Notes under the pieces: model-generated
Database searches by the model: none
What the model saw: only the letters and a program-made list of their open reading frames with translations
Told to the model about the DNA's origin: nothing
Translations under genes and position numbers: made by a program
Part shown: positions 42,489 through 59,032 of the stretch, piece by piece
How positions within the stretch are numbered: the stretch's first letter is position 1
Layout: each line of letters starts with the position of its first letter
NCBI GenBank assembly: GCA_001001705.1
Contig: LCOG01000001.1
Location: 22,449 to 86,448 of the forward strand
Reading direction: 5' to 3'
DNA: 64,000 nucleotides
Source: Parcubacteria group bacterium GW2011_GWA2_47_26
GTDB taxonomy: Bacteria > Patescibacteriota > Patescibacteriia > GWA2-47-26

Positions 42489-43445
42489 TTACATTTTGTA
42501 ATCAAAATAATCCAATATTGGTTTTAAATGCTTTCCAATAAAGGATATTTCACTCTCATTCAGTACTTGTATTTTTCTACTAAGAACTGATCTGCCCACT
42601 CCTGTTAATTGCTCAAAAGAACTACCGTATCCATGGGGCTGCCCACATAATGTAGGCTTTAACAGATTGTCGGTAAATTCAATACCTACGTGATCAGCGA
42701 TATCTCTCATCGTTTTTTCCGGCTCTGCCACTAAATCTTCAAATCTTATAAGCACTGTCCGCTCATCCACTATCTCGGATCGGTTATTCCAAAAAAAATA
42801 ATAATCCTTAATAACCTCGGCAAAATTAATCGGATGCAACGTTTTACTTTTCCTGTTTGTTCTGTCAAGTAACGAGTCTCTACTAAACATTCGGGCTTTC
42901 TTAAGAGAGTCAAGTGCATGATAAGGGTTTCTTATAAAAAAAATACATCTACAATTTTTAAGGTTAACTTTTTTTGTAGACAGTATGCTCCTTCCCATAT
43001 CTCCTATAAACATATACGCCGTGTCACGCTCGGAATAATCTGTAGGGAAGGAGTGCGCATAAGCGTTAACTAAACAATTCCAAATCTCGGGAATGCTCGT
43101 GCATCTCTTTAAACCAGCTAAATGATCAAGGAACACTTCCTTTTTAAAGTGAAGATCTACCTCATATTTTACAGGAGCAATTCCGCGAATGACTCCACCG
43201 AGCCAAGGTAATATATCACGGTCAATAAAAGACTCCATTAAATCATCTCTACCAAAGTGCTTAAATGCATCAATAAATAAAGACTCCTGACCTCTTTCTT
43301 GATAATTATATACATGCTCCCAAAAAAAAGCCTCATCAATAAAATGAATAATACCGGGCTGAGAATCAAATAAACGAGTAAGTAGCGTCCCTCCGGATCT
43401 TTTAGGTCCAGAAACAATTATTGTCTTATCAATAGACTTACTCAT
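42489..43445 (-). CDS. Sulfotransferase
   Basis: IIVSGPKRSGGTLLTRLF is a 5'-PSB-like loop. FFIRNPYHALDS is a 3'-PB-like motif. Confidence 0.75.
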   Translation of the reverse strand: MSKSIDKTIIVSGPKRSGGTLLTRLFDSQPGIIHFIDEAFFWEHVYNYQERGQESLFIDAFKHFGRDDLMESFIDRDILPWLGGVIRGIAPVKYEVDLHFKKEVFLDHLAGLKRCTSIPEIWNCLVNAYAHSFPTDYSERDTAYMFIGDMGRSILSTKKVNLKNCRCIFFIRNPYHALDSLKKARMFSRDSLLDRTNRKSKTLHPINFAEVIKDYYFFWNNRSEIVDERTVLIRFEDLVAEPEKTMRDIADHVGIEFTDNLLKPTLCGQPHGYGSSFEQLTGVGRSVLSRKIQVLNESEISFIGKHLKPILDYFDYKM

Positions 43446-44176
43446 ACTTTAATTTCATTTCTAAGTATAGCTCTTCCCATTAAAAGCTCCGCGAATGAAA
43501 AATCTATCTCTTCATCAATATCAATAGATCGTTCCTTCGGCATTACATATAGCGCTGTTTGTTTTGTGATTATGGCGTTCTCTTTAAATAAAGTATCTCT
43601 CGTTGTGGCGTAGATGCCACCATTGGGAATGAAAAGCCTCTCATAAAATTTCCGAACGGTCCTTTTACCTTGAATTGTGCCGAAAAGGTATGGCTCTGCG
43701 TAATTACCCTTTTTAAGTCGGAACATCCATTCAGGTCTCTCACGAATTTCTACTGCCGAAAAGGTCGATGAGAGTGCTTTGCCCTTCATGAGAAGTGATA
43801 TGCATGCGTCAATATCTGCACCGCGACAAAACGGAGAAGTCGGCTGGAGAGTAACAACGATGTCAACCCTCTTTCCTTCCTCCTTCTCAATGGATCTGAT
43901 AACGTGCTGAATAACGACGATAGATGTTGCATTGCTGCCGGAAATTCTTTTTGGTCGTTCATACGGGACCTCGGCTCCATATTGCAAAGAAATCTTTTTT
44001 ATTTCAGGATGATCAGTAGAAACAATAACTCTCCGTAAATATTTGCTTTGGAGAGCGGCGGAGATAATATAGGATATTAACGGTTTCCCTGCTAACAGTT
44101 TTATATTTTTAAGGGGGACCCTTACCGACCCGCCTCTCGCGGGAATAATTCCTATAATATTTAAAGGCATCTTCAT
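43442..44176 (-). CDS. CMP-nonulosonic acid synthetase (acylneuraminate cytidylyltransferase family; NeuA/LegF-like)
   Basis: IIGIIPARGGSVRVPLKNIKLLAGKPLISYII and VTLQPTSPF. Confidence 0.9.
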   Translation of the reverse strand: MKMPLNIIGIIPARGGSVRVPLKNIKLLAGKPLISYIISAALQSKYLRRVIVSTDHPEIKKISLQYGAEVPYERPKRISGSNATSIVVIQHVIRSIEKEEGKRVDIVVTLQPTSPFCRGADIDACISLLMKGKALSSTFSAVEIRERPEWMFRLKKGNYAEPYLFGTIQGKRTVRKFYERLFIPNGGIYATTRDTLFKENAIITKQTALYVMPKERSIDIDEEIDFSFAELLMGRAILRNEIKV

Positions 44177-45249
44177 AAGTTAAACCCTTTTACGGTTTCT
44201 CCGTAAGATTCCCACTGACCAATATCAGACCATGATTTTTCACTTACAGGATAAACACCCACTTTTCCCCCTCTTTCTCTTATCATTTTAATTAGATGGG
44301 GGATATCACATAACTCTTTTATGGGGAGATATTGCAAAACTATTTTTTCCAAAACATACATTCCGGTATTAGCTATAAAATCATACGCGGGTTTCTCTTC
44401 CAACGCGCTTAATTCTCCTCCTGAATTTATTTTCACAACACCATATGGAATAACCGTCTGCTGCATTGATCCTACGATGGTAAGGTCGTTCATATTCTCC
44501 TTATGAAAAGTATATATCTCATCATACCGCGCTTTAATAATCGTATCGCAATTTGAAAGAAAAAAAGTATCCGGAAAGTCTTTAGGAAGGAATTGCAGTC
44601 CTCCTACTGTGCCAAGCGGATCTTCGCCCTCGTCAATATATTTAATTCTATAATTAAAAGAATTATTATCAAAATATGATTTAATCATCTCCCTTTTATG
44701 ATTTAAAATAAGATAGATATCCCCGGCAATGTATTGTAAAAAATTATCAATTATCACTTCCACCGCTGGTTTATCGCCTATTGGTATTAATGCCTTGGGG
44801 AGAATCTTTGTAAATGGGTCTAAACGGCTACCCTTTCCTCCGGCCATAATAATAACGGGCACGTTGAGCGCGGAATATTTTTTATTTATCTCTTCAATAT
44901 TTTCTTCCGCAACGTCTTCCCAAAATATTACCTTCATAATTCGCTTATCCCCATCCACCACCGGAAGTGAGTGAACGCCCGTCTCAAGCATTCTTTTTCT
45001 AACATCTTTTTTTGAAATACCATCTTCAATATACACCGGCTCCTTGTTGTATATCTTATCAACTCTCTCGCGCAAATCACCATCCATAAGTATCCATCTT
45101 CTTATATCGCCGTCGGTAATAGTTCCGAGGAGTCGACAATCTTCATCAGCAACAAAAAGAATCTTTTTGGCTGTCTTGTCCATCTGCTTCATGGCCCCTT
45201 TAATCGTCGAGTCCTCACCCACAAATAAACTGTTCAAATCATCTATCAT
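44173..45249 (-). CDS. CBS-pair + sugar-phosphate nucleotidyltransferase (PtmE-like)
   Basis: GTITDGDIRRW and SLPVVDGDKRIMKVI (CBS), then VIIMAGGKGSRLDPFTKILPKALIPIG. Confidence 0.85.
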   Translation of the reverse strand: MIDDLNSLFVGEDSTIKGAMKQMDKTAKKILFVADEDCRLLGTITDGDIRRWILMDGDLRERVDKIYNKEPVYIEDGISKKDVRKRMLETGVHSLPVVDGDKRIMKVIFWEDVAEENIEEINKKYSALNVPVIIMAGGKGSRLDPFTKILPKALIPIGDKPAVEVIIDNFLQYIAGDIYLILNHKREMIKSYFDNNSFNYRIKYIDEGEDPLGTVGGLQFLPKDFPDTFFLSNCDTIIKARYDEIYTFHKENMNDLTIVGSMQQTVIPYGVVKINSGGELSALEEKPAYDFIANTGMYVLEKIVLQYLPIKELCDIPHLIKMIRERGGKVGVYPVSEKSWSDIGQWESYGETVKGFNL

Positions 45250-45256
45250 ATAAATG

Positions 45257-46476
<1,220 letters not shown>

Positions 46477-46480
<4 letters not shown>

Positions 46481-47112
46481 ATTCTCTTTGCCAAATTTCT
46501 ATAAATCTCGAGGCCATATTGGCCGCTGCATTCCGGATGGAATTGAAAAGCCAAAATATTATCAAACTGAAAACTCGAACAAAACTTATTTGGCCCATAC
46601 TGCGTTATTGAAGAGACAACGTCCTCCTTTTCGAGCTTAACATAATATGAGTGTACAAAATACATTGCCGCGCCATTAGATAACCCGTCCAGCAGCGTCC
46701 CCTTCCACTCAATATCCTTATCTGCCTGTATTTGGTTCCAGCCCACATGCGGCACTTTCACCCCGGGCGCTGTTTGCAATTTCATTACTGTACCTGGAAC
46801 AATGTTCAACCCGGCATGTCGTCCGAATTCAAAGCTCTCCGTCATAAGAATCTGCATGCCCAGACAAATTCCCACAAGCGGCTTGTCTGATAAAGCGTAC
46901 TCGCGCAACACATCCACAAGGCCTTTTTCTGTCAAATGTTCCATCGCAGTTCCGAATGCGCCAACACCAGTCAAAATGACCCCCGCTGACCGCAAAATAT
47001 CATCCCGCGAAGCAGTAATAATAGCACGAATGCCAACTGCTTTACAGGCCTGCTGAACACTGAATAAATTCCCTAGTCCATAATCAATAATTGCAACAAA
47101 TTTGGCATTCAT
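46477..47112 (-). CDS. HisH-like glutamine amidotransferase subunit (polysaccharide-cluster paralogue)
   Basis: VAIIDYGLGNLFSV, GICLGMQIL, FQFHPECS. Confidence 0.9.
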
Positions 47113-48005
47113 ACAGCCGCCACCGGTGTCATCTCGTGTTTAAGACACTGAACGCCGCGATTATTTAAATAATCTTTCAACTCTGGTAAGTCAATACCGT
47201 CCACTCGGGAATACCCTAAATTGCCACGAAGGAAATTCGTGTTTCCTTCACTAAATGATTTTTCTCTATATTTATATTTTTTCAGAAAACTATAATGCAG
47301 AAGGGATGCCATACTCACCGCGTCTACCCTTCCCTTAATAATAATGTCGCATACATGACTCGCGGACCCTGCTCCTCCACCAGCTATCACGGGTATGGAG
47401 ACCGATTCAGTAACTTGTCGAGTCAATTCTATGTCAAATCCTTTTCCAGTGCCTTCATTATCAATTGAAGTAACGAGAATTTCCCCGGCACCCAACTCCG
47501 CTGCCCGCCGAGCCCATTCTATCGCGTCCACACCGGTTTTCTCTCTGCCGTTATCAGTATAACATTCGTATTTTCCGTCCGGCCGCCTCATCGCCTCTAT
47601 AGAAACTACGATGGTAGAAGAACCAAACTCTTGAGACGCTTCCCGAATAAACTCTGGCCTTCTTAATGCAGCCGTATTAATCGCCACTTTATCTGCGCCC
47701 GCCCGTAGAATAGTACGTATATCGTCAATGTTTCGTAAACCGCCGCCGACTGTAAGGGGAATAAAAATTTCACTTGCGGTTTTTTCCACAATATGCAACA
47801 GGTTGTTTCGTCCATAAAGGCTAGCTACAATATCTATATATAATAATTCATCCGCGCCACTCTCGTAATAGTAACGGGCAAAATCTTCTGGCTTGCCAAG
47901 AACACGCAACCCTTCCAGGTGAATACCTTTTACCAGATTTGATCCTTTGATATCCAGGCGCGGGATAATCCGGATGTTAGCCATAGTTTTAGATTGGAAA
48001 TACAT
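47109..48005 (-). CDS. HisF-like cyclase subunit (polysaccharide-cluster paralogue)
   Basis: RIIPRLDIKG, ADELLYIDI, PLTVGGGL, IPVIAGGGAG. The true start is possibly ATG 47984 (MANIRII). Confidence 0.9.
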   Translation of the reverse strand: MYFQSKTMANIRIIPRLDIKGSNLVKGIHLEGLRVLGKPEDFARYYYESGADELLYIDIVASLYGRNNLLHIVEKTASEIFIPLTVGGGLRNIDDIRTILRAGADKVAINTAALRRPEFIREASQEFGSSTIVVSIEAMRRPDGKYECYTDNGREKTGVDAIEWARRAAELGAGEILVTSIDNEGTGKGFDIELTRQVTESVSIPVIAGGGAGSASHVCDIIIKGRVDAVSMASLLHYSFLKKYKYREKSFSEGNTNFLRGNLGYSRVDGIDLPELKDYLNNRGVQCLKHEMTPVAAV

Positions 48006-49183
48006 TATACCGGAGAAGGTGATGTCCGCAAAATATCGTGGAACCGCTTTGGTATCAGTCCCTCAAGCTTAACCTCCGCCAGAACGGCAACGATTCGCTC
48101 ACTCGACTTACCATCGCCATAGGAATTAACAAGATTCTGAAGTGAGGACTGAAAAGACTGGGAAATCGCCTTCTCAATGCCCGCCTTAATCCTTTCTGCG
48201 GAATATCCCACATCAATCACATTAGCGCTGCGCACACGGCCCTCTTCTCGTGTCCCGATATTCACAACCGGCAGTTTAAGTGAAGCTGCTTCAACAATAC
48301 CGCTGGAAGAATTTCCAACCATTGCAGCTGCGTGTCCCATCATGCTAATATACCCTTTATGGCCAAAATTCTTTACGATATATGCGTTGCGATGGTTGCG
48401 GGCGTACGACTCAATTTTTTCAATAATGATCGCGCTCCCCGCATCTTCATTTGGGTAAGTAAACACGACATGATATTCTGAGAAATGCGCAAGCGCATTA
48501 AGTAGATTTATAATATATTTTTTAGTATATTCGTACTCCATGGTTACCGGATGAAAAGTCACCAGTAAGGTTGGCTTTGAAAGATTAACGCCGTAGGCTG
48601 TTGCAAGTTCACTTTTTGAAAAACGCGGCATATTCATTATGTCATCAAGTCCGGGAGCGCCCGAAACCGTAACACGCCACGGTTCTTCTCCCATTTGTTT
48701 AATACGATTCGCATATATCTCGCTGCTGGCAAAATGTAAATGGCTGAATTTAGTCAAGGAATGTCGAAAATAATCATCCAATGCGCCATAAGTGAGCTCC
48801 CCGCCATGAATATGGGCTATGGGAATTCGATAGGGAATCGCTGCTACGGCGGCGGCATGCATCTCATATCGATCTCCAAGCACAACGAGGATGTCCGGGG
48901 CATGGTTACGAAATACCTGCGCAAAATTTTGCGTCCCTACTCCCATGGAACGCGCGATATCAAAAGGCGTATCGCCTTTTGATATCATAGGAATTTTCGC
49001 CGCAATCGGAAAACCATCTTCCTCTATCGCCTTGATTGTATTCCCAAATTTCTCCACCAGATGAGCGCCACTGACATACAGCAAAAGTTCAAGATTGTTA
49101 TGGGCTACTATCTTACGCAGGATCGGGAGATAAACGCCATAATCTGAACGCGCCACTGTCACAATACCAATTTTTCGTTTCAT
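48005..49183 (-). CDS. neuC: Hydrolysing UDP/GDP-HexNAc 2-epimerase (NeuC/LegG family)
   Basis: IGIVTVARSDYGVYLPILRKI, VVLGDRYEMHAAAVAA, IAHIHGGE, GNSSSGIVEAASLKLPVVNIG. Confidence 0.9.
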   Translation of the reverse strand: MKRKIGIVTVARSDYGVYLPILRKIVAHNNLELLLYVSGAHLVEKFGNTIKAIEEDGFPIAAKIPMISKGDTPFDIARSMGVGTQNFAQVFRNHAPDILVVLGDRYEMHAAAVAAIPYRIPIAHIHGGELTYGALDDYFRHSLTKFSHLHFASSEIYANRIKQMGEEPWRVTVSGAPGLDDIMNMPRFSKSELATAYGVNLSKPTLLVTFHPVTMEYEYTKKYIINLLNALAHFSEYHVVFTYPNEDAGSAIIIEKIESYARNHRNAYIVKNFGHKGYISMMGHAAAMVGNSSSGIVEAASLKLPVVNIGTREEGRVRSANVIDVGYSAERIKAGIEKAISQSFQSSLQNLVNSYGDGKSSERIVAVLAEVKLEGLIPKRFHDILRTSPSPV

Positions 49184-50181
49184 AGTGTTATCATTTCATC
49201 CTTAGTAAAATTTCGTGTGGCAATTTTACCAATTACCTTATCCCATGCCATCGGGCTTAATCCTGTCCCCGGTCGTTTTGTTGTAACATTCTCTTGAGTA
49301 AAAACTTCTCCCGCCTGTATATCGCGCTCAGCGATAATACTCTTGCGCGCGATAGCCATAATCTCACGTTCCACCACCGTAGGTCTTTTTACTCCATCGC
49401 CCAGCGCTTTTTCAATATTACGGATAGCGGCCACCATCGCTTTTAGTTCATGCGGTTCAAGTGATGCCTTATGGTCTGGGCCTGACATAGATCTATCCAA
49501 TGTAAAGTGTTTCTCAATCACCCTTGCCCCCAATGCAACCGCCGCGACGGGCACCTCTATCCCAAGCGTATGATCGGAATACCCAACCTGAACGCCTAAT
49601 ACATCTCTCATCGTGCACATAGCGCGTAAATTTACATCTTCCATGGCCGTAGGATAATCGGTATGACAATGAAGAATAACAATGTCATCTTTTGGTGTTC
49701 CTGATTCTATTAAAATATTTAAAGCGGCCCTTACTTCATCCATTTCCGCCATCCCAGTTGACATGATCAATCGCTTTTTAAGCGCACCAAGTTTACGAAG
49801 GTAGGGAAGATTAGTAATTTCCCCGGATGGAATTTTAATGGTTTCTAAACCAAATTTACACAACAAGTCAATGCTCTCCAAGTCAAATGGCGCAGACATG
49901 AAAATAATATTCCGTTCTTTGCAATGAGCAATGAGCTCTTGATGGAACTCTATAGATAACTCTAACTTTTTTAGCATCTCGGCTTGCGATTCATTCGATC
50001 CTGTATTCGCAACCTGGTAATTCGCTTTTATCGCATTAGCAGTTACAACTTTATCGGTCTTGAATGTCTGAAATTTTACCACGTCAGCCCCTGAAGCCGT
50101 CGCGACATCAATAAGTTTTTTAGCAATGATAATATCGCCGTTATGATTTGGCCCTGCTTCTGCAATAATTAAAGTATGCAT
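49180..50181 (-). CDS. neuB: Nonulosonic acid synthase (NeuB/LegI family)
   Basis: IIAEAGPNHNGD, ADVVKFQTF, IKIPSGEITN, YSDHTLG, and a C-terminal SAF-like domain IQAGEVFTQENVTTKRPGTG. Confidence 0.9.
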   Translation of the reverse strand: MHTLIIAEAGPNHNGDIIIAKKLIDVATASGADVVKFQTFKTDKVVTANAIKANYQVANTGSNESQAEMLKKLELSIEFHQELIAHCKERNIIFMSAPFDLESIDLLCKFGLETIKIPSGEITNLPYLRKLGALKKRLIMSTGMAEMDEVRAALNILIESGTPKDDIVILHCHTDYPTAMEDVNLRAMCTMRDVLGVQVGYSDHTLGIEVPVAAVALGARVIEKHFTLDRSMSGPDHKASLEPHELKAMVAAIRNIEKALGDGVKRPTVVEREIMAIARKSIIAERDIQAGEVFTQENVTTKRPGTGLSPMAWDKVIGKIATRNFTKDEMITL

Positions 50182-51948: not shown

Positions 51949-53063
51949 ACCGGCAGATTTAGTATATTTTTGATCTTCCCTTTGAATCCTCTTTCAACAT
52001 ATTCATTCCTTATAGTATTGTAAAACGCTACCGGAATAATCAAAACAGTATTGTAATGAGACAAATCGATCTCGACTAAAGGACGCACAATCTGCCCGCA
52101 ATATGTCTTCCCATGTTTGGTTTCATCGTTGTCAACGAGGGTAAAATCAAACGGTTTATGCATCCATGCCAACATATTATTCAAAGAATTGTTAGCTCCG
52201 TGGACAAGAATATTTCCTTGCTCCAATAGTCGGTCCACCTTCTGCAATACACGCTTGAGTTTGGCCTCATAATCGTCATATACAATAAAAGGGGCCGGTT
52301 TCATAGCATTACTACCATTCACTCGCGCTCTTACGTCCAAACTGTCATTCGTAGTTGAGCACTCTAACACCTCAAACCCGTTGTTCTGCAGCAAGTAAAA
52401 AGCTGAATGCTGGGTATAGTAATGAACATGCTCATGCAGGAACAATCCCGGATCACCATCCTCTAAGCGGGGCTGGGCGTTAGGAACAGTAAAAAATATT
52501 TCACCTTCCTCTTTTAAATTATTTCTGCAAAAACGAATAATACTGTTAATGTCTTCTGTGTGCTCAAAAACCGAATTCGAAAAAATAAGATCGTGTTTTT
52601 GTGGAAGCTTTAATTTTTCATCTGCAAATTCTTTCAAAAACAAAATGCCGTCTCTTTCTTCGGTTTTGCTGATTGAGGGTTCGATCCCCACTAATTTCTT
52701 TAGACCTTTGTCTTTCAAACACCGTAATAGGTATCCATCGGCACATCCAATTTCAACCACTGATGCATAATTTTTTACATCTATTTTGTCAAGAAAGATT
52801 TGGGCTCTTTTTAGCCCCCAATTTCCGACGCCGGTAGGAGTTGAGGCCTGCGCATGATTTGATAAATATATTTCGTTCAAAATCCTTCTTAGATTCTCAT
52901 CGACGGACTGGTACACGTGCCCGCAAACTTGGCACTGATGAAGAATACATGCGTATGCTCTTCTCTCCTTCTTTTCTTCATCGCTTGCCCCGGTCCAAAT
53001 ACAACCATCTTTCTTGTTCAGTACTTCTATATATTTTTTACTACCACATAAATAACAGCTCAT
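51945..53063 (-). CDS. Zn-ribbon SAM-dependent methyltransferase (C-methyltransferase-like architecture)
   Basis: CYLCGS...CQVCGH, VVEIGCADGYLLRCL, DLIFSNSVFEH. Confidence 0.75.
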   Translation of the reverse strand: MSCYLCGSKKYIEVLNKKDGCIWTGASDEEKKERRAYACILHQCQVCGHVYQSVDENLRRILNEIYLSNHAQASTPTGVGNWGLKRAQIFLDKIDVKNYASVVEIGCADGYLLRCLKDKGLKKLVGIEPSISKTEERDGILFLKEFADEKLKLPQKHDLIFSNSVFEHTEDINSIIRFCRNNLKEEGEIFFTVPNAQPRLEDGDPGLFLHEHVHYYTQHSAFYLLQNNGFEVLECSTTNDSLDVRARVNGSNAMKPAPFIVYDDYEAKLKRVLQKVDRLLEQGNILVHGANNSLNNMLAWMHKPFDFTLVDNDETKHGKTYCGQIVRPLVEIDLSHYNTVLIIPVAFYNTIRNEYVERGFKGKIKNILNLPV

Positions 53064-53073
53064 AATAAGTTCC

Positions 53074-54180
53074 TCATTCAGTGAGCGCTCTTATCGTCAT
53101 ACAAACGTACTGTATATCATCTTCGGAATTCAATGTAGAGCTGGGTAAACATAGTCCCCTTTCGTAAATAGAATAAGAATTCCGGCACTCTGTGCGCTTA
53201 TATTTTTTGTAGGGCGGAAATTCAACAAGAGGTATAAAAATTCTTCTTGTTGGAATTCCTTTTGCTTTCAGCGTACTTTGGAGGGTTGGTATATTTATTT
53301 TCCTGTTAAAAATTATACACGATAACCAATAGGCGCTGTGTGCATTCTCATATTCTTCTTGAAAATGAATAGACGTGATATTTCTAAGTTTTTTGCGATA
53401 TATGCTGTTGTATAGCCTTTTTTTATCTAAAAATTTGTTCAACTTCTCCATTTGCGCGAGCCCCAAAGCCGCTTCAATATTCGTCATCCTATAGTTAAAC
53501 CCCATCTCGGAATGGTAACACCCCCTCGATTTAGATTCATCTTTTGCTTGATTTATTAAAAATTTTATATGTTGTAATCTTTTCGTGTTACGTCCTACTA
53601 TTGCTCCTCCGCCGCCAGTAGTGATAATTTTATTTCCATTAAAACTAAAACACCCAAAATCGCCAAAAGTACCAGTATGTTGACTTTTATACCTTGCTCC
53701 TAAGCTTTCCGTAGCGTCTTCTATAACTTTAAGATCGTATTTTTTTGCGATAGCCATAATTTCTACCATATTACAAGGATTGCCATAAAGGTGCACTGGT
53801 ATTATAGCTTTTGTTTTGTTGGTTATGACTTGCGCTATCTTTTTGGTATCAATATTCCAAGTCGCTAAATCTACATCCACAAATACAGGTTTGGCTCCGG
53901 CATAAATAATCGGATTCACTGTGGCTACAAATGTCAAGGCAGGAACAATCACTTCATCTCCTTTTCCTATACCTAACTCATATAAAGACATGTAAAGTGC
54001 TGCTGTTCCGCTTTGTATTGCAACAGCCCTTTTAACACCTAAATATGCAGAAAATTTATTTTCAAATTCTGTTATAAAAGGACCAACAGATGAGACATAG
54101 TTACTATCTATCGCCCTATTCAGATATTTTTTCTCCAATACTCCGACATTCGGAGCGTCTAGTTGTATTTTTTTAGACAT
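53074..54180 (-). CDS. DegT-family sugar aminotransferase (LegC/PglE-like)
   Basis: AIQSGTAALYMSL and FSFNGNKIITTGGGGAI, with the PLP Lys present. Confidence 0.9.
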   Translation of the reverse strand: MSKKIQLDAPNVGVLEKKYLNRAIDSNYVSSVGPFITEFENKFSAYLGVKRAVAIQSGTAALYMSLYELGIGKGDEVIVPALTFVATVNPIIYAGAKPVFVDVDLATWNIDTKKIAQVITNKTKAIIPVHLYGNPCNMVEIMAIAKKYDLKVIEDATESLGARYKSQHTGTFGDFGCFSFNGNKIITTGGGGAIVGRNTKRLQHIKFLINQAKDESKSRGCYHSEMGFNYRMTNIEAALGLAQMEKLNKFLDKKRLYNSIYRKKLRNITSIHFQEEYENAHSAYWLSCIIFNRKINIPTLQSTLKAKGIPTRRIFIPLVEFPPYKKYKRTECRNSYSIYERGLCLPSSTLNSEDDIQYVCMTIRALTE

Positions 54181-55171: not shown

Positions 55172-55178
55172 AGCGGTC

Positions 55179-55871
55179 TCATTCTTTATGGGCGCAAATA
55201 ATGAATTCCTGAATCTCGCTGTGAAGATACTTATGCGCGCTATATCCTACATCATCGATATTAAAGTAAGGCCTAATTAATTCAGCAAAGGTTCGCGCAT
55301 CAGGCGGGCAGTATGAGCGGTGTGCTACTGTATCCCCCGGCTCGCGGGTTTCATATACATTGTCTCCGATCGACTTGGCGTATCGAGCAAAATCACTCTG
55401 GGGGCCGTTAATATCAACAATAATTTTAGCACCGGGTTTCATTACACGTAAAAATTCTTTCAACAAATACTCGGCTCGTTCTTTCGAGCCCAGAAGAGAT
55501 AATACACTCAAACAATTCACATAATCAAATTGTGCATCTGGGTAAGGAAGTACAGTGGCCCCGACAGGAAGATGGGTTAATGTGACATGTGATTGTAATT
55601 CTGGTCGCCTCTGCAATTTTCGCTCCACCAGTTGTTTTGCACCTAGCGATGCATCGATAGCCTTAATGGTATAGCCGCATTCGAGTAAATGAATCAGATT
55701 TTCTCCGCATCCAAATGCATATTCCAAAAGTAACCCCGGCTGGCTTTTAAAAAACCATTTTTCGAGTCGGACAAGATCAAGATTGGGATATTTTTTATCC
55801 GAACCGGCAGCATAATTCGCATCCCATTTTTTTACTGTATCCGGATCAACGAGTATCATAGACTCCTTCAT
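55179..55871 (-). CDS. Class I SAM-dependent methyltransferase
   Basis: ATG 55871; the track start 55877 is TTG. LLEYAFGCGENLIHLL and FDYVNCLSVLSLL. Confidence 0.75.
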   Translation of the reverse strand: MKESMILVDPDTVKKWDANYAAGSDKKYPNLDLVRLEKWFFKSQPGLLLEYAFGCGENLIHLLECGYTIKAIDASLGAKQLVERKLQRRPELQSHVTLTHLPVGATVLPYPDAQFDYVNCLSVLSLLGSKERAEYLLKEFLRVMKPGAKIIVDINGPQSDFARYAKSIGDNVYETREPGDTVAHRSYCPPDARTFAELIRPYFNIDDVGYSAHKYLHSEIQEFIICAHKE

Positions 55872-55884
55872 AATCAATATAACA

Positions 55885-56865
55885 TTAATACCCTAATTTC
55901 TTATTAACTACATTGATGAGCGGAAATCCTTTGACAAACCGTTCGATGTTCTGGCGAATGAGCTCCGCGGAACGTTCTCGATTATTATCTGACGGTCCGG
56001 CAATATGAGGAGTAATGACGACATTCTCCATATTAAGGAGAGGATGATCAACTGGCAACGGTTCGGGATCAGTTACATCCAACCCGGCGGATTTAATCCG
56101 CCCTTGCTTGAGCGCTTCTGTCAAAGCTTCCGTATCCACAATCGCTCCTCGACACACATTCACAAAATACGCCGATGGTTTCATTAAGGCAAACTCTTTT
56201 GCGCCAAACATTTTTTTAGTACGACTCGTTACCGGAACGGAAAGGATCACTACATCAGCCAAAGAAAGTACTTCGGATAAACATTCCGGTACATACCATC
56301 TATCAATCGATCGAATCATTGGTATACATTCCTGATCCACTCCATATACCGTCATACCAAACGCGTGTAATCGCTCGGCGATCAACATTCCAATCCCTCC
56401 CGCCCCCACCACAATCGCAAGCTTATTTCGCAGTTCAACCGGTCGCGGCATCATCTTATCCGATGGACGCGCTATTGTAGTACCTATCGTTCCCCGTAAT
56501 ACGAAATGGATATTCCGAGTGAGTGTAAGAAGTAACGCCAGGGCATGGTCGGCTACCTCGGGACCTTGAATCACCCGTCCATTAGTGAGAACTACATCAC
56601 TTTCGATAAGCTCTGGAATAAGAAACTCCTCACATCCGGCTCCAGGGACATGAATCCAGCGCAGGCTATTTCCGGCAAGTTCCAATAATTCTTTTGAGAA
56701 GAATGGGCGTGGACACCCAATAAGTGCCTGCGTATGAGGCATGGCATTACGCATAGCCTCAAGGGTATCATCAACAATAATACACTCAACTTCGGGTAGG
56801 GCCTGAGTTATTTCTTCAATTTTCTCTCTGGGTAGTCCAGTAGATGCAGTAAGAAGTATGCGCAT
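55885..56865 (-). CDS. D-isomer-specific 2-hydroxyacid dehydrogenase (glycerate/phosphoglycerate dehydrogenase-like)
   Basis: VVGAGGIGMLIAERLHAFGMTVYGVD, FVNVCRGAIVD, DVTDPEPLP, ITPHIAG. Confidence 0.85.
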   Translation of the reverse strand: MRILLTASTGLPREKIEEITQALPEVECIIVDDTLEAMRNAMPHTQALIGCPRPFFSKELLELAGNSLRWIHVPGAGCEEFLIPELIESDVVLTNGRVIQGPEVADHALALLLTLTRNIHFVLRGTIGTTIARPSDKMMPRPVELRNKLAIVVGAGGIGMLIAERLHAFGMTVYGVDQECIPMIRSIDRWYVPECLSEVLSLADVVILSVPVTSRTKKMFGAKEFALMKPSAYFVNVCRGAIVDTEALTEALKQGRIKSAGLDVTDPEPLPVDHPLLNMENVVITPHIAGPSDNNRERSAELIRQNIERFVKGFPLINVVNKKLGY

Positions 56866-56891
56866 ACGAATCGACAGCGGGTTTCATCATA

Positions 56892-58487
56892 TCATGGATA
56901 CATAAATTGTTCAACAAACTCCATATTAGGCATTGCTGGCGTAGCGGCGAGGGCCGAAAGTAGATCTTCCTCGCCAAAAATAAGGCGGTTGTGTTCATCA
57001 AAATTCATATACACTATCCGACAACGTTTTTCTAACCGCTCTCGAACATCAATATCCAAACGTGCCTGATCATCTCGCACTAAAAATCCAATCACTGGCT
57101 TATTGGTGCATAAAGCAATGGCAAAGGCGGTGGTTCTAATGTTACCAAATATACACGCACCCGAATCCGTGAGAGCTTGCTCAAAATCACCCGTAGCAAT
57201 TGTAGCGACCGTATCGAAAATTCCTTTTATCTCTCTCATCCGGTCAGGATGCGGCTTATATACCACCTGATATCCAACCTTACGGAGAACATCAATAAGC
57301 CGCAGTTCTAAATCAAGCTGCATTAACGAAAACCGAGCATTTCCAAGATTTTTTCTCCATGGATTATGACAATCGCCAACAACCAGTATTTTTTTAATGC
57401 GGGTTGGGAGCGATTCTTTAGAAAATTTTTGGCGCATCTTCAGATACATATCACTTCCACCGGAGATAATCTTGAGTGGACGCTCTGGAAACAGCCGGTG
57501 GCGGACATACATTCTTTCAAATAATTTAGCGCTGCCCCGGGTATATGCCACAAATTCGTCAGAAATAGCAAATTCGGAAAATGTATAGGTAGGGCTATCG
57601 AACATTGCCATAGCGCCTCCGTGTGTCAAGCTGGTTACTTTTCCACCGGCGTCTCGTACTGCAATTGCCATGGCGCTCAACAGTGGATCCCGAATATGTT
57701 GGGTTATCAAATGGAGTTGCTTCCTTGATTTAACATAACGACGTACCGAGGTTAGCAGTATCGCGGCATCTTCAAGGTGCGATTTGGTAAAGTAAAGAAG
57801 ATAGTGGAGATGCTTAGGCGTGAGGATAATTTGATGACGTGCGGCGACCGCTTGAACTTCTTCTATAATAGATTGGGAAAGTGTTGACAAAATATCTTTA
57901 AACTCTGATGATATATCGCGTCTGCGCATCCAATCTTCTTTGCAATAGGCAATCGACACTGCATAGGGAAGCGAGCGTATATAAGTCTTTATAAACTCAT
58001 TGGGGGCTCCGTACGTAATTCCCTTTTTTCGGCCGAAAAAAAGAGACAAGAATTTTTCTGGTCGCCAATTGTGTTGCAGATTTCGAAGCAACCTCCGCAG
58101 CTGAATCTTCATCATTTTCATTCTGCCCGTGGATGCGTATGTAGTATTGATCAATCGCTTGTCAAGCGTATCGCGAATGATGTCGCAATACCACAGTGAT
58201 TTTTCAGTATAAAGTGGGGCACTGTTTCTTCGAGAAATTTCAAGAATAACTTTCTGCGCATGTAAAAAATGATAATACTCAACTAAGAGTATACTGGCTT
58301 TAATAAGCAATGTATCACGATTTGTTTTTGATTCCATGGCAATACGCCTAGCCATGCACGCTTCAAGGTCGGCACACAATGCAAAAAAATCATTATCCGA
58401 AACCGGCCAAAAGAATTCCTTTTGCCAACGGGCAACTCCGTATTTCTTGACGGCATTGATATCAACAGGAAAAAAAATATCATTCAT
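56892..58487 (-). CDS. Hypothetical protein; the C-terminal half looks like a GT-B domain with an HP motif (candidate nonulosonic acid or capsule transferase)
   Basis: 531 aa. ILVVGDCHNPW, VVYKPHPDR, IRTTAFAIALCTNKPVIGF. The N-terminal ~330 aa are unrecognised. Confidence 0.4.
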   Translation of the reverse strand: MNDIFFPVDINAVKKYGVARWQKEFFWPVSDNDFFALCADLEACMARRIAMESKTNRDTLLIKASILLVEYYHFLHAQKVILEISRRNSAPLYTEKSLWYCDIIRDTLDKRLINTTYASTGRMKMMKIQLRRLLRNLQHNWRPEKFLSLFFGRKKGITYGAPNEFIKTYIRSLPYAVSIAYCKEDWMRRRDISSEFKDILSTLSQSIIEEVQAVAARHQIILTPKHLHYLLYFTKSHLEDAAILLTSVRRYVKSRKQLHLITQHIRDPLLSAMAIAVRDAGGKVTSLTHGGAMAMFDSPTYTFSEFAISDEFVAYTRGSAKLFERMYVRHRLFPERPLKIISGGSDMYLKMRQKFSKESLPTRIKKILVVGDCHNPWRKNLGNARFSLMQLDLELRLIDVLRKVGYQVVYKPHPDRMREIKGIFDTVATIATGDFEQALTDSGACIFGNIRTTAFAIALCTNKPVIGFLVRDDQARLDIDVRERLEKRCRIVYMNFDEHNRLIFGEEDLLSALAATPAMPNMEFVEQFMYP

Positions 58488-59032
58488 GTTAAATCGGGGT
58501 TCAATTTACCAAATAGTAATTCGTCAATATACGAATCTCGAAATCGAACATGCTGCTTTTTCCTTCCCTCTTCAAAAAATCCTAGCTTGAGAAAGGCTTT
58601 TATTGAACCGATGTTATTTTCGTAGGCACCGGCCGTCACCTTATGAAGATGCAGCGTACCAAACGCGTATTCCACAAGAAGTCGGATCGCTTGAGTGGCA
58701 AATCCTCTCCCCCAAGAATTTTGATCTCCAATCATAATGCCGATACTTCCCACGCTATGATGAGGATCAATCGGCCCCAACTTGATATTGCCAATATGCT
58801 CATTGGTGTCTTTTTTCACAATCGCGAACAAATACACCGCGGGGTCTTTTATAACTTTCTCAATATAAGCCCGAACACTCTCTTTCGTATGTACTATAAA
58901 TCTACTCTCAAGAAATTGATTCACCTCCGGAATATTAAGCCAATGCACATATGTATCCGTAGCGTCGGCCGGCTGAATCGGACTAAGATAGATGGTCTCG
59001 CCCTCGAGGCGTAATTGACTATTATCGTGCAT
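58484..59032 (-). CDS. GNAT N-acetyltransferase (RimJ/RimL-like)
   Basis: Start taken at ATG 59032 (MHDNSQLRLEGETIYLSPIQ). ATG 59047 is also possible, and the track start 59086 is GTG. IGIMIGDQNSWGRGFATQAIRLLVEYAF. Confidence 0.75.
   Translation of the reverse strand: MHDNSQLRLEGETIYLSPIQPADATDTYVHWLNIPEVNQFLESRFIVHTKESVRAYIEKVIKDPAVYLFAIVKKDTNEHIGNIKLGPIDPHHSVGSIGIMIGDQNSWGRGFATQAIRLLVEYAFGTLHLHKVTAGAYENNIGSIKAFLKLGFFEEGRKKQHVRFRDSYIDELLFGKLNPDLT

What the first reader, a model, noticed from the sequence alone, without database searches (positions are those of the whole stretch)
43442..59032. Legionaminic-acid-like nonulosonic acid pathway with an acetamidino module
The gene set matches the established GDP-linked legionaminic acid route. 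It includes a CBS-nucleotidyltransferase (PtmE-like, 44173-45249), a 4,6-dehydratase (54173-55171) and an aminotransferase (53074-54180). It also includes an N-acetyltransferase candidate (GNAT, 58484-59032), a hydrolysing 2-epimerase (48005-49183), a NeuB-type synthase (49180-50181) and a CMP-transferase (43442-44176). A PP-loop N-acetyl sugar amidotransferase plus HisH/HisF paralogues (45257-48005) is the trio associated with acetamidino (Am) groups on such sugars. The exact stereochemistry (Leg, Pse or another) cannot be decided from sequence by eye.
Basis: established knowledge. Interest (0 to 1): 0.55.

Follow-up and report, generated by a model that had tools for sequence, protein, structure and literature searches.

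The report
Legionaminic-acid gene cluster with swapped acyltransferase
A groundwater Parcubacteria (candidate phyla radiation) genome carries a genuine legionaminic-acid-type sugar pathway with an acetamidino module, but an uncharacterised methyltransferase, phosphoesterase and ATP-grasp ligase cassette sits where the usual N-acetyltransferase should be, so the sugar probably carries an unusual acyl group.

Summary
LegB and LegC pass NCBIfam's curated cut-offs. NeuC is closest to the solved GDP/UDP-diNAcBac hydrolysing 2-epimerase. NeuB falls among synthases from LegB/LegC clusters and apart from solved PseI and NeuB. A PtmE-like guanylyltransferase, a CMP-synthetase and a WbuX/HisH/HisF trio are present. 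A GDP-route legionaminic-acid pathway with an acetamidino module is therefore supported.

Two points are not supported. The cluster lacks a LegH/NeuD-type hexapeptide acetyltransferase. The GNAT proposed instead belongs to a separate conserved block: GNAT, a 531-aa GT-B-like protein, a 2-hydroxyacid dehydrogenase and a methyltransferase.

PHP plus ATP-grasp recurs in Leg-type clusters of many phyla that lack the hexapeptide enzyme. Clusters with that enzyme lack the pair. Other relatives hold a formyltransferase, another ATP-grasp or a FemAB-like enzyme there. I infer an ATP-dependent N7-acylation giving CMP-Leg5Am7R, with R unknown.

The source is Parcubacteria GW2011_GWC2_45_7. PAPS-synthesis genes and sulfotransferases flank the cluster. 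This is a new variant of a known kind.

The parts
44173..45249 (-). PtmE-like CBS + sugar-1-phosphate nucleotidyltransferase (predicted GlcN(Ac)-1-P guanylyltransferase)
   Evidence: Pfam CBS + NTP_transferase. No NCBIfam equivalog passed its cut-off. Homologues sit in the same position in Leg-type clusters. L134 has a 522-bit relative. GTP specificity is inferred from C. jejuni PtmE (PMC5378307).
54173..55171 (-). LegB, NAD-dependent 4,6-dehydratase
   Evidence: TIGR04180 LegB 493 bits, above the cut-off of 475. The PseB model gives only 71.5 bits.
53074..54180 (-). LegC-family PLP aminotransferase (makes the 4-amino group, the future N7)
   Evidence: TIGR04181 434.5 bits, above the cut-off of 420. 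PseC gives 274 bits, below its cut-off of 423. It matches PDB 7b0m 'sugar aminotransferase' closely (497.8 bits, E 1.9e-148). The next best structures are GDP-perosamine synthases.
51945..53063 (-). Class I SAM methyltransferase-like protein (372 aa), first gene of the cassette in the 'LegH slot'
   Evidence: Pfam Methyltransf_23. Overlaps the PHP gene. A methyltransferase-like gene lies directly upstream of PHP in 5 of 18 related loci under a strict criterion. Weaker MT372-like hits occur in several more.
51223..51948 (-). PHP-family metal phosphoesterase (241 aa)
   Evidence: Pfam PHP. Closest solved relatives are the PolX PHP domain and YcdX. The canonical motifs DYHMH, SEH, E87, H115, H157 and GSDAH are present. 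It lies immediately upstream of the ATP-grasp in 19 of 23 orthologous loci.
50195..51235 (-). ATP-grasp ligase (346 aa), proposed N7 (sugar N4) acylating enzyme
   Evidence: NF009402 325.6 bits, above the cut-off of 218. 892 homologues at E<=1e-10, about 60% identical across phyla. AF2 model pLDDT 90.5; the best folds are 2pn1, PurK, CPS, biotin carboxylase, PurT, PurD and PylC. It is embedded in LegB-LegC-NeuC-NeuB clusters that lack a hexapeptide acetyltransferase.
49180..50181 (-). LegI-like NeuB-family nonulosonic acid synthase
   Evidence: TIGR03569 495.6 bits, above the cut-off of 399.7. PseI gives 297.8 bits, below its cut-off of 340. It is 57-65% identical to synthases in LegB/LegC/NeuC contexts and 31-38% identical to solved PseI, Nm NeuB, SpsE and Leptospira NeuB. 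In 75-80 of 100 bootstraps it falls in an outgroup-free Leg-context clade.
48005..49183 (-). LegG-like hydrolysing NDP-sugar 2-epimerase (NeuC family)
   Evidence: TIGR03568 447 bits. The best solved structures are 5zlr and 5xvs, GDP/UDP-N,N'-diacetylbacillosamine 2-epimerase (hydrolysing), at 275 bits. Human GNE gives 176 bits.
47109..48005 (-). HisF/WbuZ-like cyclase-type subunit of the acetamidino module
   Evidence: WbuZ 276.8 and HisF 282.6 bits, both just under their cut-offs. Pfam His_biosynth. Adjacent to HisH and WbuX, as in L007, L009, L014, L020, L025 and L027.
46477..47112 (-). HisH-like glutaminase subunit of the acetamidino module
   Evidence: TIGR01855 200 bits, above the cut-off of 105.
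45257..46480 (-). WbuX-family PP-loop N-acetyl sugar amidotransferase
   Evidence: TIGR03573 327 bits, above the cut-off of 203. Intact here (407 aa). Two other assemblies of the same population carry a TGA at codon 42.
43442..44176 (-). CMP-nonulosonate synthetase (LegF-like cytidylyltransferase)
   Evidence: Pfam CTP_transf_3. The PseF model gives 143 bits, below its cut-off of 206. L134 has a 315-bit relative beside PtmE.
58484..59032 (-). GNAT (Acetyltransf_3) acetyltransferase, conserved partner of the 531-aa protein; role unknown
   Evidence: Pfam Acetyltransf_3 90.6 bits. PseH gives 49 bits, below its cut-off of 93. Homologues (104-118 bits) lie directly upstream of unk531 homologues in L133, L134 and L136. 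Only 1 of about 25 ATP-grasp-type loci has one.
56892..58487 (-). 531-aa protein of a small uncharacterised family with a divergent GT-B-like fold (candidate transferase)
   Evidence: No Pfam or NCBIfam hit. 45 homologues. AF2 pLDDT 89. Weak Foldseek hits to UDP-GlcNAc 2-epimerases and GT-B glycosyltransferases, TM 0.3-0.5. Invariant H289-G290 and K411-x-H413-P414.
55885..56865 (-). D-isomer-specific 2-hydroxyacid dehydrogenase
   Evidence: Pfam 2-Hacid_dh_C. No NCBIfam equivalog passed its cut-off. It follows unk531 homologues in L136 and in L137 (411 bits).
55179..55877 (-). Small class I methyltransferase (about 226-232 aa)
   Evidence: Pfam Methyltransf_11/25. A 281-bit homologue follows the dehydrogenase in the Uhrbacteria locus L137.
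42489..43445 (-). Sulfotransferase overlapping the end of the CMP-synthetase gene
   Evidence: Pfam Sulfotransfer_3. A 342-bit homologue lies in the Halobacteriovorax Leg locus L025. Sulfotransferases follow the CMP-synthetase in L007.
59022..63263 (-). Sulfotransferase (59022-60209), PQ-loop/SemiSWEET + APS kinase fusion (60206-61006) and pyruvate-kinase barrel + ATP sulfurylase fusion (61008-63263): PAPS supply and use
   Evidence: Pfam and NCBIfam hits. The same PK-ATP-sulfurylase fusion lies next to Leg clusters in L007 and L025.

Best explanation
The interval is the core of a GDP-route legionaminic-acid (Leg) pathway with an acetamidino module. It lies in a glycan locus that fills the whole 64-kb window, in Parcubacteria bacterium GW2011_GWC2_45_7. 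The canonical N-acetylation step has been exchanged.

Inferred order of steps:
1. The PtmE-like enzyme makes GDP-GlcN(Ac).
2. LegB dehydrates it at C4/C6.
3. LegC installs the 4-amino group.
4. In place of a LegH hexapeptide acetyltransferase, the ATP-grasp ligase (50195-51235) uses ATP to attach a carboxylic acid to that amine. The adjacent PHP phosphoesterase probably removes a phosphate from a phosphorylated acyl donor or product. The 372-aa methyltransferase probably methylates the group.
5. LegG-like NeuC removes GDP and epimerises C2.
6. LegI-like NeuB condenses the hexose with PEP.
7. The LegF-like enzyme makes the CMP-sugar.
8. WbuX/HisH/HisF convert the 5-N-acetyl group to 5-N-acetimidoyl.

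The predicted product is CMP-Leg5Am7R, where R is a non-acetyl acyl group of unknown identity.

What is shown and what is inferred:
- Shown: family membership of the core enzymes, and the comparative-genomic pattern.
- Inferred: substrate order, the role of the ATP-grasp/PHP/methyltransferase cassette, and the stereochemistry.

A second conserved block probably tailors or transfers the sugar. It comprises the GNAT, the 531-aa GT-B-like protein, the 2-hydroxyacid dehydrogenase and the small methyltransferase. Flanking PAPS genes and sulfotransferases suggest that the final glycan is sulfated.
For: Core identity:
- LegB and LegC exceed NCBIfam's curated cut-offs, while the PseB and PseC models fail.
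- NeuB passes NeuB_NnaB and fails PseI.
- NeuC is closest to the solved hydrolysing diNAcBac 2-epimerase.
- NeuB groups with synthases from Leg contexts, at 57-65% identity. It is 31-38% identical to solved PseI and NeuB. 75-80 of 100 bootstraps support this grouping.
- LegC's best named solved relatives are GDP-perosamine synthases.
- WbuX passes its cut-off and is flanked by HisH and HisF paralogues.

The slot:
- The only hexapeptide acetyltransferase in the 64 kb is at 32760-33338. It lies beside WbpB/WbpE-like genes, 10 kb away.
- ATP-grasp orthologues (49-61% identical) in Omnitrophota, Scalindua, Syntrophomonas, Rhodocyclaceae, Bdellovibrionota, Desulfuromonadaceae, SAR116 and others lie in LegB-LegC-NeuC-NeuB-PtmE clusters. 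PHP is directly upstream in 19 of 23.
- Among Leg-type clusters, 13 with the ATP-grasp have no in-cluster hexapeptide gene. 20 clusters with a hexapeptide gene lack both PHP and the ATP-grasp.
- The closest relatives of the window's LegB, LegC, PtmE and LegF (L133, L134) carry a formyltransferase between LegC and NeuB.
- L120, L121 and L123 carry a different ATP-grasp there, and L070 carries a FemAB-like enzyme. The slot therefore holds interchangeable amide-forming enzymes.
- L136 pairs a methyltransferase and an ATP-grasp with a HAD hydrolase instead of PHP. This supports a ligase-plus-phosphatase logic.
- The ATP-grasp and PHP catalytic motifs are conserved.
Against: - No enzyme here has been assayed, and the acyl group is unknown.
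- One locus, L040, has a hexapeptide gene next to PHP and an ATP-grasp split over three frames. Exclusivity is therefore not absolute.
- In Sinorhizobium pSymB the PHP, ATP-grasp and SDR trio sits beside cysD-nodQ-cysQ with no NulO genes. The module is therefore not specific to Leg and could serve another tailoring reaction.
- 13 of 22 related loci have an SDR after the ATP-grasp, which the window lacks.
- The two locus sets were retrieved with different queries, so the 2x2 table is not a random sample.
- The ATP-grasp fold neighbours (PurK, PurT, CPS) are generic.
- No biochemically characterised LegI, LegB or LegC sequence could be placed in a tree with these tools.
- The GNAT, or an unlinked acetyltransferase elsewhere in the genome, could still acetylate N4.
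Confidence: 0.55

Rival explanations
1. This is the reader's version: a canonical Leg5Am7Ac pathway. N4-acetylation is done by the GNAT at 58484-59032, by the distant hexapeptide enzyme, or by an unlinked gene. The methyltransferase, PHP and ATP-grasp cassette performs some other tailoring reaction, for example on a hydroxyl or carboxyl group or on another sugar of the polymer.
For: - The GNAT has weak PseH similarity, E 6e-13.
- L040 shows a hexapeptide gene co-occurring with PHP and ATP-grasp.
- Sinorhizobium has the PHP, ATP-grasp and SDR trio without NulO genes.
- GDP-GlcN also needs an N-acetyltransferase in the C. jejuni scheme (established knowledge, Schoenhofen 2009 as summarised in PMC5378307).
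Against: - The GNAT is paired with the 531-aa protein in loci that already have a formyltransferase in the slot.
- A GNAT homologue is absent from nearly all ATP-grasp-type Leg clusters.
- 13 of 13 intact ATP-grasp-type clusters lack an in-cluster hexapeptide gene, against 20 of 26 other clusters that have one.
- The window's hexapeptide gene belongs to a WbpB/WbpE-type set. That set co-occurs with a separate LegH-like gene in L053, L077, L086, L107 and L110.
Confidence: 0.3
2. The PHP and ATP-grasp pair belongs functionally to the sulfation part of the locus. It might, for example, handle PAP or PAPS or a sulfated intermediate. Its place inside the Leg cluster would then be incidental.
For: - In Sinorhizobium it directly follows cysD-nodQ-cysQ.
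- The window, L007 and L025 combine it with PAPS genes and sulfotransferases.
- Some PHP-family enzymes hydrolyse 3',5'-pAp (own knowledge, not tested here).
Against: - Most ATP-grasp-type Leg clusters show no PAPS genes or sulfotransferases within 10 kb.
- The pair sits between LegC and NeuB or NeuC, often with overlapping reading frames.
- This reading gives the ATP-grasp no obvious role.
Confidence: 0.1
3. The cluster makes pseudaminic acid or true sialic acid (Neu5Ac) rather than a Leg-type sugar.
For: The best solved-structure hit of NeuB is a PseI (8h2c, 204 bits, against 156 for N. meningitidis NeuB). No LegI structure exists for comparison.
Against: - The PseB, PseC, PseI and PseF models all fall below their cut-offs, while LegB, LegC and NeuB_NnaB pass.
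- A NeuC-type hydrolysing 2-epimerase is present and no PseG was found.
- A 4,6-dehydratase and a 4-aminotransferase are not needed for Neu5Ac.
- The tree separates the window's NeuB from PseI and NeuB.
Confidence: 0.03

Closest known systems
Campylobacter jejuni GDP-linked CMP-legionaminic acid pathway (PtmE, LegB, LegC, LegH, LegG, LegI, LegF; Schoenhofen et al. 2009, as summarised in PMC5378307)
   Same: It has a CBS-nucleotidyltransferase, a LegB-family dehydratase, a LegC-family aminotransferase, a NeuC-type hydrolysing 2-epimerase, a NeuB-type synthase and a CMP-synthetase. The related locus L007 even keeps the PtmE, GFO/IDH/MocA, cytidylyltransferase and SDR gene order. This order resembles my recollection of C. 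jejuni Cj1329-Cj1332, which was not checked here.
   Different: There is no LegH-type hexapeptide N-acetyltransferase. A methyltransferase, PHP and ATP-grasp cassette occupies that position. No PtmF or PtmA homologues lie next to PtmE in the window. The host is a CPR bacterium, not a flagellated pathogen.
Acetamidino modification systems: WbuX/WbuY/WbuZ, and C. jejuni PseA or PtmG with HisH/HisF paralogues
   Same: A PP-loop WbuX-family amidotransferase lies beside HisH and HisF paralogues next to NulO genes. This is the arrangement associated with 5-N-acetimidoyl groups (established knowledge; PMC5378307 for pseA and ptmG).
   Different: HisF is 298 aa, with a C-terminal extension of about 55 aa, and scores just under both the HisF and WbuZ cut-offs. 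Part of the natural population carries a nonsense allele of WbuX.
Tannerella forsythia Leg and Pse loci (Leg derivative with an unknown acyl group; Pse5Am7Gra)
   Same: It is a Leg-type locus recognised by LegB, LegC, LegG, LegI, LegF and PtmE homologues. Its NulO carries non-acetyl N-acyl groups whose genetic basis is unknown (PMC5378307).
   Different: T. forsythia keeps a PglD-like hexapeptide acetyltransferase (BFO_1067), and pseA and ptmG have no homologue there. The window has the opposite pattern.
Sinorhizobium meliloti pSymB SMb21226-SMb21228 (PHP, ATP-grasp, SDR) in the nodP2-smb21248 polysaccharide cluster
   Same: PHP is directly followed by an ATP-grasp that is 37% identical to the window's, next to PAPS synthesis genes and sulfotransferases (PMC5498481).
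   Different: There are no NulO genes. An SDR is present and there is no methyltransferase. The polysaccharide is uncharacterised, so it offers no functional transfer.
ATP-grasp amidoligase plus phosphatase in C. jejuni capsule glucuronamide synthesis (Cj1438 and Cj1435; recalled from memory, not checked here)
   Same: The logic is the same: an ATP-grasp forms a sugar amide with a phosphorylated partner, and a phosphatase then removes the phosphate.
   Different: It is a different ATP-grasp family and a different phosphatase fold. The sugar supplies the carboxylate there, whereas here the sugar is proposed to supply the amine. This is an analogy only.

Membership tests
GDP-route legionaminic acid pathway (C. 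jejuni type) | LegB-family NAD-dependent 4,6-dehydratase (non-inverting) | tested here: met
   TIGR04180 493 bits, above the cut-off of 475. PseB gives 71.5 bits against a cut-off of 408. Activity and retention of configuration were not assayed.
GDP-route legionaminic acid pathway (C. jejuni type) | LegC-family 4-aminotransferase | tested here: met
   TIGR04181 434.5 bits, above the cut-off of 420. PseC gives 274 bits, below its cut-off of 423.5.
GDP-route legionaminic acid pathway (C. jejuni type) | LegH / NeuD / PglD-type hexapeptide N-acetyltransferase acting on the 4-amino sugar | tested here: not met
   There is no hexapeptide protein between 42 and 64 kb. The only one in the window (32760-33338) sits with WbpB/WbpE-like genes. 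The slot is occupied by the methyltransferase, PHP and ATP-grasp genes.
GDP-route legionaminic acid pathway (C. jejuni type) | Hydrolysing NDP-sugar 2-epimerase (LegG), not PseG | tested here: met
   NeuC_NnaA 447 bits. The closest solved structure is the GDP/UDP-diNAcBac hydrolysing 2-epimerase, 5zlr and 5xvs.
GDP-route legionaminic acid pathway (C. jejuni type) | NulO synthase of the Leg clade (LegI) | tested here: inconclusive
   It passes NeuB_NnaB and fails PseI. It groups with synthases from LegB/LegC contexts in 75-80% of bootstraps. No biochemically characterised LegI sequence was available for the tree.
GDP-route legionaminic acid pathway (C. jejuni type) | PtmE-type GTP-specific GlcN-1-P nucleotidyltransferase | tested here: inconclusive
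   The CBS + NTP_transferase architecture and conserved position are present. Nucleotide specificity cannot be read from the sequence.
GDP-route legionaminic acid pathway (C. jejuni type) | CMP-Leg synthetase (LegF) | tested here: met
   CTP_transf_3. It is below the PseF and KdsB equivalog cut-offs. It lies in the terminal position of the cluster, as in related loci.
GDP-route legionaminic acid pathway (C. jejuni type) | D-glycero-D-galacto configuration of the product | not testable with these tools
   This needs NMR of the sugar. No extra epimerase gene lies within the core, but 4-epi and 8-epi forms cannot be excluded.
Acetamidino (Am) module WbuX/WbuY/WbuZ | PP-loop N-acetyl sugar amidotransferase | tested here: met
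   TIGR03573 327 bits, above the cut-off of 203.
Acetamidino (Am) module WbuX/WbuY/WbuZ | Adjacent HisH-like glutaminase and HisF-like subunit | tested here: met
   HisH gives 200 bits, above the cut-off of 105. HisF-like gives WbuZ 277 against 300 and HisF 283 against 295, both just below cut-off. The three genes overlap or abut.
Pseudaminic acid pathway | PseB, PseC, PseH, PseG, PseI and PseF equivalogs | tested here: not met
   All Pse models score below their cut-offs, and no PseG (Glyco_tran_28_C) was found.

The most novel reading that the evidence does not exclude
The PHP plus ATP-grasp pair, often with an SDR or a methyltransferase, may be a widespread and unrecognised route for N-acylating nucleotide-linked 4-amino sugars without acetyl-CoA. 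It would stand in for LegH and generate a family of legionaminic acids with new N7 substituents. One possibility is a (methylated) hydroxy-acid derived from a phosphorylated glycolytic acid such as 3-phosphoglycerate or PEP. In this Parcubacterium, and in Omnitrophota and Halobacteriovorax, the resulting Leg5Am7R would be part of a sulfated surface glycan.
Probability: 0.3. Interest if true: 0.65.

Novelty: new variant of a known kind. Interest (0 to 1): 0.5.

Why it matters
Nonulosonic acids owe much of their biological specificity to their N-acyl groups. The genes that install anything other than acetyl or acetimidoyl are largely unknown, as PMC5378307 says explicitly.

The comparison made here suggests that the gene or genes between LegC and LegI form an exchangeable 'acyl slot'. 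In different loci the slot holds a hexapeptide acetyltransferase, a formyltransferase, one of two ATP-grasp families, or a FemAB-like enzyme. If correct, this gives a simple genomic rule for predicting N7 diversity. It also supplies a set of candidate enzymes for chemoenzymatic synthesis of Leg analogues.

The locus also shows that a CPR bacterium, a group generally thought to have small genomes and limited biosynthesis (own knowledge), devotes at least 64 kb to an elaborate, probably sulfated, Leg-containing surface glycan. This is relevant to how such episymbionts interact with hosts. The public annotation of these genes is generic (SpsE, carbamoylphosphate synthase, histidinol phosphatase).

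Tried and rejected
- Literature searches linking ATP-grasp, PHP or carbamoyl-phosphate-synthase-like proteins to legionaminic or nonulosonic acids, and NulOs to CPR or Parcubacteria, found nothing relevant. A search for PDB code 7B0M found no paper.
- Solved-structure sequence searches for the ATP-grasp and PHP gave only a structural-genomics entry and generic relatives. Foldseek on the ATP-grasp model gave generic ATP-grasp neighbours and did not reveal the substrate.
- A promoter and terminator scan of 42-61.5 kb was no better than shuffles. It is consistent with one long operon but not informative.
- I considered that the fragmented hisF and WbuX gene calls in public assemblies meant a decayed module. 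This was rejected for hisF, where the cause is an N-gap that the window closes. For WbuX the difference is a real single-base nonsense polymorphism.
- I considered the hexapeptide gene at 32760-33338 as LegH. I rejected it as the default because its orthologues sit beside WbpB/WbpE-like genes in loci that also carry a separate in-cluster hexapeptide gene.
- The first bootstrap attempt timed out and was redone with a faster distance method.
- A plasmid search for cultured carriers of the ATP-grasp found only distant (37% identical) Sinorhizobium homologues of unknown function.
- The C. botulinum Maf paper gave no information on Leg5GluNMe7Ac biosynthesis genes.

Full report
**Observation.** The window is almost entirely minus-strand genes with small gaps or overlaps.
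- 43442-44176 is a CTP_transf_3 cytidylyltransferase.
- 44173-45249 is a CBS + NTP_transferase protein.
- 45257-46480 is a WbuX-family N-acetyl sugar amidotransferase (327 bits, cut-off 203).
- 46477-47112 is HisH.
- 47109-48005 is HisF/WbuZ-like.
- 48005-49183 is NeuC_NnaA (447 bits).
- 49180-50181 is NeuB_NnaB (496 bits).
- 53074-54180 is LegC-family (434.5 bits, cut-off 420).
- 54173-55171 is LegB (493 bits, cut-off 475).
- 58484-59032 is an Acetyltransf_3 GNAT.

- an ATP-grasp (50195-51235), a PHP phosphoesterase (51223-51948) and a 372-aa methyltransferase (51945-53063), all between LegC and NeuB;
- a small methyltransferase (55179-55877), a D-2-hydroxyacid dehydrogenase (55885-56865) and a 531-aa protein without any family hit (56892-58487), all between the GNAT and LegB.

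**Source.** The NeuB protein occurs with identical sequence on several public contigs. The window is at least 99.9% identical to them. Exact look-ups name the organism as Parcubacteria group bacterium GW2011_GWC2_45_7, from a contig of 114,869 bp. The deposited names are generic: SpsE, carbamoylphosphate synthase large subunit, histidinol phosphatase and dTDP-glucose 4,6-dehydratase. The rest of the window is also glycan biosynthesis:
- a GT4-family priming transferase and many glycosyltransferases;
- a GDP-mannose dehydratase and a C-methyltransferase;
- WbpB/WbpE/WbpD-like genes and an AsnB homologue;
- a sulfatase-domain protein and a Wzy-like protein;
- an ABC exporter and a weak Capsule_synth protein.

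**Is it Leg, Pse or Neu?**
- LegB and LegC pass NCBIfam's curated thresholds, while PseB (71.5 bits) and PseC (274 bits against 423.5) do not.
- NeuB passes NeuB_NnaB and fails PseI (298 bits against 340).
- NeuC's best solved relatives are the hydrolysing GDP/UDP-N,N'-diacetylbacillosamine 2-epimerases 5zlr and 5xvs (275 bits). Human GNE scores 176 bits.
- LegC matches PDB 7b0m closely (497.8 bits). This is an unpublished 'sugar aminotransferase'. The next best are GDP-perosamine synthases, which fits a GDP-linked substrate.
- NeuB's best solved hit is a PseI (8h2c, 204 bits). No LegI structure exists, however.

- The window's NeuB is 57-65% identical to synthases encoded beside LegB, LegC and NeuC.
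- It is 31-38% identical to PseI, N. meningitidis NeuB, B. subtilis SpsE and a Leptospira NeuB.
- In 75-80 of 100 bootstraps it lies in a clade of at least 40 Leg-context sequences that contains no outgroup.

Three features point to a Leg-type route with GDP-linked intermediates. These are a NeuC-type 2-epimerase rather than PseG, a dehydratase and aminotransferase that Neu5Ac synthesis does not need, and a PtmE-like enzyme. This is the same reasoning used for Tannerella forsythia (PMC5378307). The exact stereochemistry cannot be read from the sequence.

**The missing LegH.** The canonical route needs an N-acetyltransferase for the 4-amino group. In C. jejuni this is LegH and in T. forsythia a PglD-like enzyme (PMC5378307).
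- The window has a single hexapeptide-repeat protein, at 32760-33338. It is next to a GFO/IDH/MocA oxidoreductase and near a DegT aminotransferase. I read this as a WbpB/WbpE/WbpD-type set (own knowledge).
- Orthologues of that set occur in other loci alongside a separate in-cluster hexapeptide gene.

**The cassette in the slot.**
- The ATP-grasp has 892 homologues at E<=1e-10, about 60% identical across phyla.
- In Omnitrophota, Syntrophomonas and Scalindua contigs it lies inside LegB-LegC-NeuC-NeuB-PtmE-cytidylyltransferase clusters, directly preceded by a PHP gene.
- A scan of GTDB genomes gave 43 loci. In 23 orthologous loci PHP is immediately upstream in 19. An extended SDR follows in 13 of 22. 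A methyltransferase-like gene precedes PHP in at least 5 of 18.
- No hexapeptide protein was found inside these clusters, either by Pfam on the unassigned ORFs or by a repeat heuristic validated on the window.
- I then fetched the 80 closest metagenomic relatives of the window's LegB (59-72% identity). None has the ATP-grasp or PHP. Where the cluster is captured, a 200-240-aa hexapeptide protein usually sits between LegC and NeuB or PtmE.

Counting clusters that contain NeuB plus LegB or LegC:

| Cluster content | Count |
|---|---|
| ATP-grasp present (12 with PHP), no in-cluster hexapeptide gene | 13 |
| PHP, ATP-grasp split into two pieces, no hexapeptide gene (I take this to be L030) | 1 |
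| PHP, ATP-grasp split into three pieces, hexapeptide gene present (L040) | 1 |
| In-cluster hexapeptide gene, no PHP or ATP-grasp | 20 |
| Neither | 5 |

- Of the five with neither, three (L120, L121, L123) carry a different ATP-grasp of about 318 aa in the same slot.
- One (L070) carries a FemAB-family protein before NeuB.
- One (L089) carries a short hexapeptide protein.

The exception is L040. It has LegB, a 191-aa hexapeptide protein, PHP, and an ATP-grasp split over three frames.

The closest relatives of the window's LegB, LegC, PtmE and cytidylyltransferase are in L133 and L134 (LegC 545-552 bits, PtmE 522 bits). Between LegC and NeuB, L134 has a formyltransferase and L133 has a formyltransferase-carbamoyltransferase fusion.

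The simplest reading is that the position after LegC is an exchangeable slot for the enzyme that acylates the new amine. In the window this enzyme would be the ATP-grasp.

**What the cassette might do.**
- The ATP-grasp model is confident (pLDDT 90.5). It resembles enzymes that activate small carboxylates as acyl phosphates and pass them to amines: PurK, PurT, PurD, PylC, CPS and biotin carboxylase. It also resembles an uncharacterised structural-genomics protein, 2pn1.
- Its nucleotide- and metal-binding residues are invariant among 15 orthologues.
- The PHP protein keeps the canonical metal-binding motifs. Its closest solved relatives are PolX PHP domains and YcdX.
- In L136 a methyltransferase and an ATP-grasp are followed by a HAD hydrolase rather than PHP. 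This suggests that a phosphatase of any fold will serve.

I therefore propose that the ligase joins a phosphorylated acid to the amine and the phosphatase then removes the phosphate. Candidate acids are 3-phosphoglycerate, PEP and O-phosphoserine. In some lineages the product would then be reduced by the SDR, or methylated. The identity of the acid is a guess. The ligase-plus-phosphatase logic is an inference, supported only by gene association and by analogy.

The same PHP, ATP-grasp and SDR trio is a core feature of Sinorhizobium pSymB (SMb21226-21228 in strain 1021). It follows cysD-nodQ-cysQ in a cluster for an uncharacterised, putatively sulfated polysaccharide (PMC5498481). The module is therefore not restricted to NulO pathways.

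**The second block.**
- The 531-aa protein belongs to a family of only 45 detected members.
- Its model (pLDDT 89) has weak GT-B-fold similarity, with TM 0.3-0.5 to UDP-GlcNAc 2-epimerases and GT-B glycosyltransferases.
- It has invariant H289-G290 and K411-x-H413-P414 motifs.
- Homologues are preceded by an Acetyltransf_3 GNAT in L133, L134 and L136. They are followed by a 2-hydroxyacid dehydrogenase in L136 and L137, and by a small methyltransferase in L137, a Candidatus Uhrbacteria contig.
- GNAT, unk531, dehydrogenase and methyltransferase thus form a conserved NulO-associated unit, separate from the slot. Its function is open. It could be a transferase for the NulO or for a hydroxy-acid substituent.
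- This is the main reason for not accepting the GNAT as the LegH substitute.

**Sulfation.**
- Upstream lie a sulfotransferase, a PQ-loop + APS kinase fusion and a pyruvate-kinase-barrel + ATP sulfurylase fusion.
- A second sulfotransferase overlaps the end of the cytidylyltransferase gene.
- L007 (Omnitrophota) and L025 (Halobacteriovorax) combine the same kind of Leg cluster with sulfotransferases and the same PK-sulfurylase fusion. L025 also shares the Capsule_synth-like protein, the ABC exporter and a PIG-L deacetylase.
- The final glycan is probably sulfated. Whether the sulfate is on Leg is unknown.

**Verdict.** The claim that the set matches the established route, with a GNAT as acetyltransferase, is not supported. 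The locus is best described as a new variant of a known pathway in which the N7-acylation step has been swapped. Confidence is about 0.85 for a Leg-type pathway with an Am module. It is about 0.5 for the ATP-grasp as the N7-acylating enzyme. It is low for any specific acyl group.

Noticed in passing
window 46355-46357 (codon 42 of WbuX, 45257-46480): The window has AGA (Arg). Two other assemblies of the same population have TGA at this codon: GCA_001001845.1 contig LCLE01000002.1 and an ANAN16-1 scaffold. The stop splits the N-terminal Cys-rich region. This may be a natural on/off polymorphism of the acetamidino modification, or an assembly or consensus difference.
   Followed up: partly
window 61008-63263: A 751-aa fusion of a pyruvate kinase barrel domain, without the C-terminal regulatory domain, to a PUA_2 + ATP sulfurylase. 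The same fusion occurs next to Leg clusters in Omnitrophota (L007, 730 aa) and Halobacteriovorax (L025, 506 bits). It may regenerate ATP to drive APS formation.
   Followed up: partly
window 60206-61006: APS kinase with an N-terminal PQ-loop/SemiSWEET-like membrane domain of about 85 aa. This is an unusual fusion of a small transporter-like module to a PAPS-pathway kinase.
   Followed up: no
window 63272-64000 (gene runs off the window end): The protein has DUF4910, Peptidase_M28-like and HTH_47 domains. [quoted passage not shown] It is required for the di-O-methylglyceroyl form of pseudaminic acid in C. jejuni 11168 (PMC3068675). Homology to Cj1295 itself was not tested.
   Followed up: partly
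window 36712-39168: PIG-L family de-N-acetylase, a GNAT and a FemAB-family protein in a row, followed by an ABC exporter. PIG-L genes also accompany formyltransferases in L133, L134 and L137, and a FemAB-like gene precedes NeuB in L070. This suggests a second system that swaps N-acyl groups.
   Followed up: partly
window 52758-52814 and 48359-48392: Dense SNP patches against otherwise identical public contigs. There are 10 differences in 57 nt within the 372-aa methyltransferase (L001 only). There are 4 differences in 34 nt within NeuC (L001-L003). They look like short recombination tracts or strain mixtures.
   Followed up: no
window 47109-48005: The HisF-like protein is 298 aa. The His_biosynth domain ends near residue 240, leaving a C-terminal extension of about 55 aa with no family hit. 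Public assemblies have a scaffold gap inside this gene (window 47500-47592) that the window closes.
   Followed up: partly
window 40971-42473: A 500-aa protein with a weak Capsule_synth (KpsC/KpsS-like) hit. It is conserved in the Halobacteriovorax locus L025 (185 bits). It is a candidate CMP-ulosonic-acid-dependent transferase for the Leg derivative.
   Followed up: no
L133 and L134 (metagenome contigs): These loci carry two NulO pathways side by side, with two NeuB and two cytidylyltransferase genes. In the Pse-like half an ATP-grasp sits between a PseG-like gene and NeuB. ATP-grasp ligases may therefore also stand in for the acetyltransferase in Pse-type clusters.
   Followed up: no
window 24559-25503 (+ strand): The only sizeable plus-strand ORF in the window (314 aa, TTG start) has no Pfam hit. 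It lies between two minus-strand sugar-nucleotide genes. It may not be a real gene.
   Followed up: no
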